Source: a virus
Taxonomy: Duplodnaviria; Heunggongvirae; Uroviricota; Caudoviricetes
Direction: 5' to 3' (one strand)
Virus record (IMG/VR): IMGVR_UViG_2562617113_000015
Coordinates: 1-30,093 of that record
Length of the DNA stretch: 30,093 nucleotides
Part shown: piece by piece, positions 12,965 through 13,224 of the stretch
Numbering within the stretch: the first letter of the stretch is position 1
Layout of the letters: every line of letters begins with the position of its first letter
Translations under genes and position numbers: made by a program
Notes under the pieces: generated by a model
What the model saw: the letters and a program-made list of their open reading frames with translations, nothing else
Told to the model about the DNA's origin: nothing
Databases searched by the model: none

Positions 12965-12994
12965 CACATTGTCCGGGGCTATATTCCTCACGCG
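12965..12994 (+). promoter_or_regulatory. Strong sigma70 promoter (TTGACC-N18-TATATT) in the PR' position downstream of Q
   Basis: Sequence match read by eye; followed by a short leader ending in a hairpin plus T-run at 13046-13066. Confidence 0.5.
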
Positions 12995-13000
12995 CCAGCA

Positions 13001-13190
13001 AAATCTGGCGTCGGGATTGGCGTCCCGGATGAAAAAGGCGACAACAGACGCGCCAGCGTCTTTTTTATTGTCGTTTGCACTGTCACATCTCAATGGTGGG
13101 CTGTGTGGGGGCGGAGCGATCCGCGCCGGTTCCTTTTTCCCGGTTACGCCAACCCTGCACAGTTCACCACCATACTGATTGGCGTCAGCA
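13001..13190 (+). ncRNA. Structured leader or antisense-type regulatory RNA module, copy 2 (possibly doubling as the PR'/tR' leader)
   Basis: Box A GGGATTGGCGTCCC (13013-13026), hairpin AGACGC-GCCA-GCGTCT plus T6 (13046-13066), box B GGTTACGCCAACCC (13142-13155), box C TGATTGGCGTC (13176-13186) about 40 nt before the ORF6N ATG. Confidence 0.4.
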
Positions 13191-13224
13191 GTGGTGATGA
13201 TTCACATAGAAAAAGGATCATCCT

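What the first reader, a model, noticed from the sequence alone, without database searches (positions are those of the whole stretch)
12965..13224. Second copy of the same regulatory module, sitting in the PR'/tR' position downstream of Q
The same box A, hairpin plus T-run, box B and box C module recurs with a strong promoter (TTGACC-N18-TATATT) immediately after the Q gene, ending about 40 nt before the ORF6N antirepressor gene. It may simultaneously be the Q-utilisation late promoter and leader (6S-RNA-like) and an antisense-type controller. A duplicate of a late-leader-like module in the early region (copy 1) would be unusual and could place rha and the downstream replication genes under related control.
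Basis: seen in the sequence. Interest (0 to 1): 0.6.

Follow-up and report, generated by a model that had tools for sequence, protein, structure and literature searches.

The report
Known isrK/C4 antirepressor-control RNA cassette
The repeated module is a second copy of a well-known phage RNA switch (IsrK leader plus C4 antisense RNA) that keeps an antirepressor gene silent; it is not the phage's late promoter, which lies about 750 bases further downstream.

Summary
Window 12956-13224 and 7706-7983 are two copies of one module. Rfam identifies both as isrK leader sRNA plus C4 antisense RNA, at 62-80 bits against cut-offs of 45-50. Copy 2 also matches c4-a1b1.

Each copy has a sigma-70 promoter, a 75-nt leader ending in an intrinsic terminator, a C4 RNA, and two short target boxes ahead of an antirepressor-type gene (rha for copy 1, ORF6N ant for copy 2). 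A second set (a1, a', a2) was missed; a2 covers the Shine-Dalgarno sequence.

Across about 86 related cassettes both box sets co-vary as triplets, with at least 30 a-types and 6 b-types. That is the P1/P7 c4 logic. Copy 2 has the same layout as the Gifsy-1 antQ-isrK-orf45-anrP locus.

The PR'/tR' reading is not supported:
- The promoter element that directly follows this Q family in other phages (TTTACGATCGTAAAA...terminator) sits intact at 13731-13817, after ant.
- The same cassette promoter follows three unrelated Q families and many non-Q genes.

This is a known system of low novelty. The two copies share the b boxes and differ in the a boxes.

The parts
12556..12951 (+). Q antiterminator gene (131 aa). 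Context only, not part of the cassette.
   Evidence: Pfam PF06530 Phage_antitermQ, E 5.6e-52. It is 78% identical to the Q of Stx phage L001.
12956..12985 (+). Cassette promoter of copy 2: -35 TTGACC (12956-12961), 18-nt spacer holding the conserved TCCGGGGC, -10 TATATT (12980-12985). The predicted transcription start is about 12992.
   Evidence: 10 of 12 consensus matches, the only hit in 4.7 kb. The same TTGACn-N18-TATATT promoter occurs in the Stx phage nin region and after three Q families.
12992..13066 (+). IsrK-like leader sRNA of copy 2. Hairpin 1 is 12992-13011. Hairpin 2 (13012-13027) presents box b1, ATTGGCGTC (13016-13024). Box a1 is GAAAAAGG (13031-13038). The intrinsic terminator is 13046-13061 plus a T-run.
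   Evidence: Rfam isrK 79.4 bits and c4-a1b1 52.2 bits; terminator scan; box positions.
13089..13174 (+). C4 antisense RNA of copy 2. It has a 17-bp closing stem and two hairpins. The a' loop is CCTTTTTC (13132-13139). The single-stranded b' is ACGCCAA (13146-13152). The 3' end reads CACCACCA.
   Evidence: Rfam C4 74.0 bits, E 6.7e-13. The fold is reproduced in the minimum-free-energy structure of the read-through leader, z = -4.6.
13178..13217 (+). Target boxes in the ant 5' UTR: b2 ATTGGCGTC (13178-13186) and a2 GAAAAAGGA (13209-13217). Box a2 contains the Shine-Dalgarno sequence, 7 nt before the ATG.
   Evidence: cognate duplexes of -11.6 and -10.9 kcal/mol. Family-wide, a2 sits at a fixed position and usually ends in the purine-rich Shine-Dalgarno bases (typically GGA).
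13225..13713 (+). ORF6N-type antirepressor gene (162 aa), the regulated gene of copy 2.
   Evidence: Pfam ORF6N, E 1.2e-21; PHROG 2379 anti-repressor, E 2.6e-78.
13731..13817 (+). Probable true late promoter PR' and short terminated leader for this Q. The -35 is TTTACG (13731-13736), within the palindrome TTTACGATCGTAAA. The -10 is TATCCT (13753-13758). TAAGAGTG is conserved at the start of the transcript. The terminator is 13789-13810 plus a T-run.
   Evidence: It is homologous to the element that directly follows Q in Photorhabdus, Providencia and Stx phages. Terminator.
7706..7734 (+). Cassette promoter of copy 1, weaker than copy 2: -35 TTGATT, 17-nt spacer, -10 TACACT. The predicted start is about 7741.
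   Evidence: It aligns with the copy 2 promoter. It scores 8 of 12, below the scan threshold. Read directly from the sequence.
7741..7817 (+). IsrK-like leader of copy 1. Box b1 is ATTGGCGTC (7765-7773). Box a1 is CAATATAG (7782-7789). The terminator is 7795-7812 plus a T-run.
   Evidence: Rfam isrK 61.9 bits; terminator; boxes.
7842..7929 (+). C4 antisense RNA of copy 1. The a' loop is CTATGTTG (7886-7893). Box b' is ACGCCAA (7901-7907).
   Evidence: Rfam C4 80.1 bits, E 2e-14.
7933..7972 (+). Target boxes in the rha 5' UTR: b2 ATTGGCGTC (7933-7941) and a2 CAACATAG (7965-7972). Box a2 abuts or overlaps the GGGG Shine-Dalgarno sequence ahead of ATG 7984.
   Evidence: cognate a duplexes of -14.9 and -15.3 kcal/mol.
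7984..8547 (+). Rha-family regulatory protein gene (187 aa), the regulated gene of copy 1.
   Evidence: Pfam Phage_pRha, E 4.2e-27.

Best explanation
Each copy is a self-contained antirepressor-control cassette of the P1 immI c4 / Gifsy-1 isrK type.

1. A sigma-70 promoter belonging to the cassette starts a transcript whose first 75 nt form the IsrK-like leader. The leader has two hairpins, displays boxes b1 and a1, and ends at an intrinsic terminator.
2. Transcripts that read through the terminator continue into the C4 RNA. C4 exposes a' in a hairpin loop and b' in a single-stranded stretch. The transcript then runs into the 5' UTR of the antirepressor gene, which carries b2 and a2.
3. C4 pairs through a' and b' with a2 and b2, either still in the transcript or after processing to a stable RNA of about 80 nt. 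Because a2 contains the Shine-Dalgarno sequence, the ribosome is excluded and the antirepressor stays off in the lysogen.
4. The a1 and b1 boxes of the leader are decoys for the same C4 loops. In cis they mask C4 in the precursor. As free short IsrK RNA in trans they compete with the mRNA. The balance of short leader to read-through therefore sets whether the antirepressor is translated and the prophage induced.
5. Specificity is written in the a and b boxes. In this prophage the two cassettes have identical b boxes and unrelated a boxes. One controls rha in the early operon. The other controls ORF6N ant between Q and the late promoter.

Shown here: family membership, the anatomy, three-way co-variation of the boxes, and the position relative to Q and PR'. 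Inferred from P1 and Gifsy-1 work: processing, translational repression, the decoy action and the effect on induction.
For: **Family membership and structure.**
- Rfam hits lie well above gathering scores for both copies.
- There are 9 compensatory pair changes between the copies and one broken pair.

**Three-way co-variation of the boxes.**
- The a' loop has a perfect complement of at least 8 nt downstream in 62 of 114 cassette candidates.
- It has such a complement upstream in 46 of 114. In non-cognate pairings the figure is 1.2%.
- The downstream site sits at a fixed position, in most cassettes ends in the purine-rich Shine-Dalgarno bases (typically GGA), and usually lies within about 12 nt of a start codon.
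- The b boxes form six matched b1/b'/b2 triplet types, 66 of 70 complete across those six types.

**Duplex energies and folding.**
- Cognate a duplexes are -11 to -15 kcal/mol. Non-cognate ones are -4 to -9.
- Read-through leaders fold far better than shuffles (z = -4.6 and -4.0). They show two alternative folds, C4 free or C4 paired in cis with a1/b1.
- Those two folds match structures B and A demonstrated for Gifsy-1 in PMC4825925.

**Gene context.**
- Downstream genes across the family are ORF6N, Rha, Bro-N, KilA-N and P22_AR_N antirepressor types, or small proteins.
- Gifsy-1 itself gives isrK, c4-a1b1 and C4 hits, followed by an ORF6N-like gene (MTTQISVETLSP...), in the same order directly after its Q.

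**Experimental precedent.**
- PisrK drives anrP transcription, which is translationally silent until IsrK is supplied in trans.
- P1/P7 c4 blocks ant translation by pairing around the ribosome binding site and underlies heteroimmunity (review PMC12197685).
Against: - No transcript, processing or translation data exist for this prophage.
- The Gifsy-1 authors explain activation through translation of a small ORF (orf45) inside the C4 region, not through C4 acting as a repressor. A comparable 34-codon ORF exists in copy 2 (13093-13197).
- In copy 1, and in 47 of 69 related cassettes, an ORF starting at the conserved ATG of the C4 stem has no stop within the about 190 nt examined. In many it runs in frame into the downstream gene. 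Translation through C4 may therefore be part of the mechanism.
- Copy 1 has a weak promoter (8 of 12) and may depend on early-operon transcription.
- c4-a1b1 did not reach its gathering score for copy 1.
Confidence: 0.82

Rival explanations
1. The copy 2 promoter is the Q-dependent late promoter PR'. The IsrK-like leader with its terminator is the 6S-like tR' leader. Q loaded at this promoter reads through the hairpin into ant and the late genes.
For: - The -35 lies 4 nt after the Q stop codon, and it is the strongest promoter-like site in the region.
- A short terminated transcript follows.
- The same juxtaposition recurs after Q genes of three families, with the -35 overlapping or abutting the stop codon.
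- It also occurs in Gifsy-1.
Against: - Q-utilisation sites are specific to a Q family. Here one near-identical promoter and leader follows three unrelated Q families and many non-Q genes.
- The element that directly follows homologues of this Q in 54 of 83 loci is a different promoter-leader-terminator unit.
- That unit is annotated PR' in Ss-VASD. It matches the 258-nt PR'-to-tR' geometry mapped in Stx phages.
- It is intact in the window at 13731-13817.
- The same holds for 82-type Q. isrJ lies 40-49 nt after Q in 32 loci without the cassette, and after the cassette in 28 loci.
Confidence: 0.05
2. The C4 region acts mainly as a small upstream ORF (orf45-like), not as an antisense RNA. Translation of that ORF, opened by short IsrK binding, is coupled to antirepressor translation. 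This is the published Gifsy-1 model.
For: - PMC4825925 shows that orf45 start and stop mutations reduce IsrK-dependent anrP activation.
- Copy 2 has a 34-codon ORF ending 28 nt before the ant ATG.
- Forty-seven of 69 cassettes have no stop within the about 190 nt examined after the conserved ATG, and in many the ORF runs in frame into the downstream gene.
Against: - The reading frame at b' differs among cassettes (46, 14 and 9 in the three frames). The peptide sequence is not conserved where the a' loop varies.
- Conservation follows the RNA structure: compensatory pairs, Rfam C4 and box co-variation.
- A stable processed RNA (STnc1160) covering this region is reported in Salmonella.
- The two models are not exclusive.
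Confidence: 0.1
3. The similarity between the two regions is an inert duplication or chance repeat with no regulatory role in this prophage. The prophage may be decaying.
For: - Relative to strain UTAK-5 the window has four single-base gaps in the holin gene, and the sequence after 14330 does not align.
- Relative to cassettes in other phages its ant gene is shorter at the 3' end.
- Together these features suggest some decay.
Against: - Both copies keep every functional element: promoter, terminator, C4 fold, matched a and b boxes, and intact downstream ORFs.
- Differences between the copies are compensatory, not random.
- Rfam E-values are 1e-10 to 1e-15.
Confidence: 0.03

Closest known systems
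Gifsy-1 isrK locus of Salmonella (antQ - PisrK - isrK - orf45/STnc1160 - anrP - isrJ); Hershko-Shalev et al. 2016, PMC4825925
   Same: - Gene order is the same as for copy 2: a Q gene, a promoter abutting its stop codon, isrK with a terminator, the C4 region, an ORF6N-like antirepressor gene, then a short promoter-terminator unit.
- The same Rfam families match.
- The same two alternative leader folds are predicted.
   Different: - Gifsy-1 Q is the phage 82 type (PF06323). The window's Q is PF06530, the 933W type.
- The a boxes differ: Gifsy-1 has TCGGTGAT against CCTTTTTC here.
- The unit after ant is isrJ in Gifsy-1 and the TTTACGATCGTAAAA element here.
- The window carries a second cassette upstream of rha.
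immI operon of phages P1 and P7 (P51 - a1 b1 - c4 - a2 b2 - icd - ant1/2); Citron and Schuster 1990 and 1992, cited via PMC8546580 and PMC12197685
   Same: - The antisense RNA is made from the same transcript as its target.
- Two short loops pair with sites both upstream and downstream of the RNA.
- The downstream site covers a ribosome binding site.
- The output is control of an antirepressor.
- Box differences give heteroimmunity.
- The Rfam C4 and c4-a1b1 families were built on this system.
   Different: - In P1 the first regulated gene is icd, and ant is controlled indirectly by Rho-dependent polarity (my own knowledge, not tested here). Here a2 covers the Shine-Dalgarno sequence of the antirepressor gene itself.
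- The lambdoid cassettes have an intrinsic terminator between a1/b1 and C4, which creates a separate short sRNA (IsrK).
- The host phages are lambdoid or phiP27-like, not P1-like.
P4 CI RNA with seqA, seqB and seqC (mentioned in PMC4825925 as a structural homologue)
   Same: A processed RNA pairs with complementary sequences upstream and downstream of itself in the same transcript.
   Different: The outcome in P4 is premature transcription termination of replication genes, not translational control of an antirepressor. This was not examined here.
Lambdoid PR'-tR' late leaders (lambda 6S RNA; StxS of Stx phages, PMC7547250)
   Same: A constitutive promoter just after Q gives a short terminated RNA. 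The position is similar.
   Different: - The window's real counterpart of this unit is at 13731-13817, not the cassette.
- The cassette promoter does not co-vary with the Q family.

Membership tests
Rfam RF01695 C4 antisense RNA | Covariance-model score at or above the gathering score (45 bits). | tested here: met
   74.0 bits at 13089-13174 and 80.1 bits at 7842-7929, both full-length matches.
Rfam RF01695 C4 antisense RNA | A long closing stem enclosing two hairpins, maintained by compensatory change. | tested here: met
   Twenty-seven pairs compared between the two copies: 5 compensatory, 4 one-sided, 0 broken. The fold is recovered de novo.
P1-type c4 system | Two exposed segments (a', b') complementary to sites both upstream (a1, b1) and downstream (a2, b2) in the same transcript. 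| tested here: met
   Exact boxes are located in both copies. Family-wide co-variation is shown for a and for b.
P1-type c4 system | The downstream target overlaps a ribosome binding site. | tested here: met
   Box a2 (GAAAAAGGA) lies 7 nt before ATG 13225. Box a2 of copy 1 abuts GGGG ahead of ATG 7984. In most related cassettes a2 ends in the purine-rich Shine-Dalgarno bases (typically GGA), usually within about 12 nt of a start codon.
P1-type c4 system | The regulated operon encodes an antirepressor. | tested here: met
   ORF6N and Rha domains. Bro-N, KilA-N and P22_AR_N occur in relatives. Antirepressor activity itself was not tested.
P1-type c4 system | C4 is processed from the precursor to a stable RNA of about 77 nt, by RNase P in P1. 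| not testable with these tools
   Only the sequence feature is visible: an acceptor-like stem followed by CACCACCA in both copies (alignments).
Rfam RF01394 isrK | Covariance-model score at or above the gathering score (50 bits), with a terminal intrinsic terminator. | tested here: met
   79.4 and 61.9 bits. Terminators at 13046-13061 and 7795-7812, each with a T-run.
Rfam RF01394 isrK | Short IsrK acts in trans to activate antirepressor translation; it binds Hfq. | not testable with these tools
   Known only from Gifsy-1 experiments.
Rfam RF03163 c4-a1b1 | Covariance-model score at or above the gathering score (46.7 bits). | tested here: inconclusive
   Copy 2 scores 52.2 bits at 12979-13031. 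Copy 1 has no hit at the gathering threshold, although its isrK hit covers the same hairpins.
Lambdoid PR'/qut/tR' late leader | The promoter-leader unit is specific to, and travels with, its Q family. | tested here: not met
   The same cassette promoter follows PF06530, PF06323 and DUF1133 Q genes and many non-Q genes. Homologues of this Q are followed by a different unit in 54 of 83 loci.
Lambdoid PR'/qut/tR' late leader | A promoter directly downstream of Q with a short terminated transcript. | tested here: met
   This is met by position only: the -35 lies 4 nt after the Q stop and the terminator 75 nt after the start.
Lambdoid PR'/qut/tR' late leader | Q-dependent read-through of the terminator. 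| not testable with these tools
   This needs reporter fusions with and without Q.

The most novel reading that the evidence does not exclude
The two cassettes of this prophage may form one coupled circuit, not two independent switches. They share identical b1, b' and b2 boxes but have unrelated a boxes. Each C4 could therefore half-bind the other's leader and mRNA, and each short IsrK leader could act as a partial decoy for the other C4. That would link expression of the early-operon Rha regulator to the ORF6N antirepressor placed between Q and PR'. In addition, the copy 1 leader terminator (7795-7812) stands in the path of early transcription toward the replication genes and Q. Its read-through could therefore gate the whole lytic programme.
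Probability: 0.15. Interest if true: 0.45.

Novelty: already known. Interest (0 to 1): 0.2.

Why it matters
**Annotation.** RefSeq's annotation of the identical prophage lists no RNA features here. It extends the rha ORF across the whole RNA module. The region between Q and ant could easily be mistaken for the late promoter, as it was here.

**Biology.** The cassette is a RecA-independent route to prophage induction in Gifsy-1. DNA similar to the 12201-13230 stretch (RusA, Q and the cassette) was found in 2737 of 5426 complete E. coli genomes, including Stx phages; for most of those genomes only the cassette part matches, since just 50 cover 80% or more of the query. How these cassettes are wired therefore bears on spontaneous induction and toxin release.

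**Side results that may be useful.**
- The cassette sits as an insertion between Q and an intact cognate PR' in two unrelated Q families.
- By position, the Salmonella sRNA IsrJ is the PR' leader of the 82-type Q.
- The a and b boxes form a combinatorial specificity code, with at least 30 a-types and 6 b-types.

Tried and rejected
- **Whole-sequence duplex prediction** between C4 and the leaders gave long artificial duplexes and was uninformative. I replaced it with loop-only duplexes and exact-complement counts.
- **isrJ in the window.** An Rfam E-value scan of 13650-13900 gave only 13.9 bits (E 3.3), which is not significant. The window's post-ant unit belongs to a different, 933W-type family.
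- **Literature search for the string TTTACGATCGTAAA** found nothing.
- **The original P1 c4 papers** (PMC312442, PMC196329) are not held. P1 details therefore rest on secondary sources and my own knowledge.
- **The search for related loci with the Q protein in genome contigs** returned only 8 loci. That was enough to reveal the PR'-type element, but not for statistics. Those came from a viral contigs pattern scan.
- **A possible cross-hybrid.** A 7-bp complement between the copy 1 a' loop and the copy 2 leader (CAUAGAA, -9.0 kcal/mol) looked like cross-regulation. The same leader variant occurs in a phage with no copy-1-type C4 within 11 kb, so I treat it as probably chance.
- **PisrK as a recombinant of PR'.** I considered whether the cassette promoter next to 82-type Q derives from PR'. 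The -35 and spacer differ, and the full PR' is retained after ant. I rejected the idea.

Full report
**1. The observation**

The window is a phiP27-like E. coli prophage. The 12201-13230 stretch is 100% identical to strain UTAK-5, and other parts are related to phiP27 and PhiR49_2.

The segment named in the finding is real and repeated. Aligning 7700-7990 with 12950-13230 gives 79% identical columns. Rfam covariance models at their curated thresholds hit both copies on the + strand:
- Copy 2: isrK at 12992-13066 (79.4 bits), c4-a1b1 at 12979-13031 (52.2 bits), C4 at 13089-13174 (74.0 bits).
- Copy 1: isrK at 7741-7817 (61.9 bits), C4 at 7842-7929 (80.1 bits).

The promoter TTGACC-N18-TATATT at 12956-12985 is the only promoter-like match in 4.7 kb. 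The hairpin plus T-run is at 13046-13067.

Between the two copies the C4 structure has 5 compensatory and 4 one-sided changes in 27 pairs, with none broken. The isrK structure has 4 compensatory changes in 18 pairs, with one broken.

**2. Anatomy**

- Box A is ATTGGCGTC at 13016 and 7765, in the loop of the second leader hairpin.
- Box B is ACGCCAA at 13146 and 7901, in the single-stranded part of C4.
- Box C is ATTGGCGTC at 13178 and 7933, in the 5' UTR of the downstream gene.

These are the b1, b' and b2 sites of a c4-type system. A second set was missed:
- In copy 2 the loop of the second C4 hairpin is CCUUUUUC (13132). Its complements are GAAAAAGG in the leader (13031) and GAAAAAGGA at 13209. 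The latter contains the Shine-Dalgarno sequence 7 nt before the ant ATG.
- In copy 1 the loop is CUAUGUUG (7886). Its complements are CAAUAUAG (7782, with one G-U pair) and CAACAUAG (7965), just ahead of the rha start at 7984.

The two copies therefore have identical b boxes and unrelated, internally matched a boxes. Cognate a duplexes are -11 to -15 kcal/mol and non-cognate ones -4 to -9.

The downstream genes are an ORF6N antirepressor-type protein (13225-13713) and a Rha-family protein (7984-8547).

**3. Evidence from relatives**

A scan of viral contigs with the C4 core gave 114 distinct candidate cassettes, of which about 86 are genuine.

Co-variation of the a boxes:
- The a' loop is highly variable, with at least 30 types.
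- In cis it has a perfect complement of 8 nt or more downstream in 62 of 114 cases and upstream in 46 of 114.
- Non-cognate pairings reach that length in 1.2% of cases.
- The downstream site is at a fixed distance, in most cassettes ends in the purine-rich Shine-Dalgarno bases (typically GGA), and usually lies within about 12 nt of a start codon.

Co-variation of the b boxes: they form complete b1/b'/b2 triplets in six types. These are TTGGCGT, TTGGAAC, TTAGCAC, TTAGGAA, TTTGCAC and TTAGCCT.

Gene context:
- The regulated genes are ORF6N, Rha, Bro-N, KilA-N or P22_AR_N proteins, or small proteins of 60-80 aa.
- The genes upstream are diverse: DUF4222, AlpA, Lar, NinB, Ogr and three kinds of Q.
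- In Stx phages the same cassette, with the same TTGACn-N18-TATATT promoter, lies in the nin region between ninE and ant.

**4. Mechanism**

This is the logic described for P1/P7 c4. There, an antisense RNA made from the same transcript as its target pairs around the ribosome binding site and blocks antirepressor synthesis. Box differences give heteroimmunity (PMC12197685; PMC8546580).

It is also the Gifsy-1 isrK locus. There, PisrK drives transcription into anrP. The read-through transcript is translationally silent, and short IsrK supplied in trans activates anrP translation 139-fold and induces the prophage (PMC4825925).

I confirmed that Gifsy-1 carries isrK, c4-a1b1 and C4 hits and an ORF6N-like gene (its product begins MTTQISVETLSP..., as in the ORF6N cluster) in that order directly after its Q.

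Folding the full read-through leaders of the window gives z-scores of -4.6 and -4.0. Two competing folds appear. In one, C4 is free. In the other, a1 and b1 pair in cis with a' and b'. These correspond to the Gifsy-1 authors' structures B and A.

My best account has four steps:
1. The cassette promoter makes a short decoy leader and, by read-through, C4 plus the antirepressor mRNA.
2. C4 clamps b2 and a2 and hides the Shine-Dalgarno sequence.
3. The leader's a1 and b1 compete for C4.
4. The ratio of short leader to read-through sets the switch.

Family membership, anatomy and co-variation are shown here. Processing, repression and decoy action are inferred from P1 and Gifsy-1.

**5. Is it the late promoter?**

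The position is suggestive, because the -35 begins 4 nt after the Q stop codon. The evidence nevertheless points elsewhere.

The window's Q is PF06530 and 78% identical to the Q of Stx phage L001. In Photorhabdus, Providencia and a third genus, homologues of this Q are followed directly by a conserved unit. It consists of TTTACGATCGTAAAA, a TAT..T -10 hexamer 16 nt after TTTACG, an invariant TAAGA(G/A)TG, and then a hairpin with a T-run whose stem sequence varies.

Support for this unit as PR':
- Of the 89 oriented loci carrying this unit (88 viral or genomic loci plus the window itself), 83 have a Q homologue upstream on the same strand. In 54 of them the unit lies 9-55 nt after the end of the Q alignment.
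- The depositors of Shigella phage Ss-VASD annotate it as 'putative late promoter PR''.
- In Stx phage L001 the start predicted from its -10 (about 7535) is 258 nt upstream of the end of the second terminator (about 7793). That equals the PR'-to-tR' distance mapped by dRNA-seq and Term-seq for StxS (PMC7547250).

In the window this unit is present once, intact, at 13731-13817, which is after ant. Many relatives with a 93-99% identical Q have the same order: Q, cassette, ORF6N ant, PR' unit. Their a and b boxes differ. Others have unrelated cargo in the same slot.

The same holds for the unrelated 82-type Q of Gifsy-1. The start of isrJ lies 40-49 nt after Q in 32 loci without a cassette. It lies 867-1078 nt after Q in 28 loci with one cassette between, and the full promoter is retained after ant.

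Finally, the cassette promoter and leader are nearly identical after three unrelated Q families. That is not expected of a Q-specific utilisation site.

I conclude that the cassette is an insertion between Q and its own late promoter. I cannot exclude some effect of Q on it without experiments, and I give that 5%.

**6. Comparison, novelty and score**

The module belongs to known, curated RNA families. It has an experimentally studied homologue in the same genomic position. DNA similar to the 12201-13230 stretch (RusA, Q and the cassette) was found in 2737 of 5426 complete E. coli genomes; only 50 of those genomes cover 80% or more of the query, so for most it is the cassette part that matches.

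A copy in the early region is normal for this family. The only mildly new points are these:
- Two cassettes occur in one prophage, with shared b boxes and orthogonal a boxes. Another phage, L059, also has two cassettes with different a' loops.
- The cassette recurs at the Q|PR' junction.
- By position, IsrJ is the PR' leader of the 82-type Q.

I rate the finding already known, with interest 0.2.

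Noticed in passing
window 13731-13817: A conserved promoter-leader-terminator unit (TTTACGATCGTAAAA ... TATCCT ... TAAGAGTG ... hairpin plus Ts) lies after ant. It is homologous to the unit that directly follows this Q family elsewhere, and to the annotated or mapped PR' of Stx phages. It is the probable real late promoter and a StxS/6S-like leader.
   Followed up: yes
L253 (Gifsy-1 NC_010392) 33406-33480, minus strand; loci L254-L312: The Salmonella sRNA IsrJ starts just after a TTGCAA-N17-TATATT promoter. 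That promoter lies 40-49 nt after 82-type Q genes in 32 loci lacking the cassette, and after the cassette in 28 loci. By position IsrJ is the PR'-tR' leader RNA of that Q family.
   Followed up: partly
window 7846-7983 and 13093-13197; related cassettes from L004-L123: The conserved ATG in the 5' strand of the C4 stem opens an ORF. In copy 1, and in 47 of 69 related cassettes, it has no stop within the about 190 nt examined, and in many it runs in frame into the downstream gene. In copy 2 it stops after 34 codons, like Gifsy-1 orf45. RefSeq annotates rha with a long N-terminal extension covering the whole RNA module, and lists no RNA features there.
   Followed up: partly
window 12962-12979 and homologous promoters (L001 about 3990-4010; L253 34350-34325): The promoter spacer TCCGGGGC just upstream of the -10 is conserved in cassettes from all contexts. 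This suggests a binding site or a promoter feature beyond the hexamers. Unexplained.
   Followed up: no
window 7795-7818: The copy 1 leader terminator stands inside the rightward early operon, between lar and rha and ahead of the replication genes and Q. Early transcription toward Q must pass it.
   Followed up: no
window 13700-13713 compared with L168, L161 and L159: The window's ORF6N ant (162 aa) lacks about 27 C-terminal codons that related cassettes have (...KFYLEQRGWIVARK...). The sequence reads as an internal deletion of about 80 nt ending at the same TAA. UTAK-5 shares the short form, and in that strain the gene is also interrupted by an IS66 element.
   Followed up: partly
window 13877-14538 and 14861-15257: A low-GC AraC-family moron follows PR'. 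The window and UTAK-5 do not align from 14331 to about 14835, and two overlapping window ORFs (13877-14371, 14278-14538) stand where UTAK-5 has a single AraC-family gene. The first holin gene is split into two overlapping ORFs, with four single-base gaps relative to UTAK-5. This may be decay or sequencing error.
   Followed up: partly
window 7882-7895 against 13205-13211: The copy 1 a' loop has a 7-bp complement (UUCUAUG/CAUAGAA) to the copy 2 ant leader, next to a2. The same leader variant occurs in a phage lacking a copy-1-type C4, so this is probably chance.
   Followed up: partly
window 6607-7374: A third antirepressor-type gene (ORF6N plus a weak KilAC/ANT domain, 255 aa) lies early in the rightward operon, downstream of the cI-like repressor gene (5407-6096, opposite strand). 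It has no isrK/C4 cassette in front of it.
   Followed up: no
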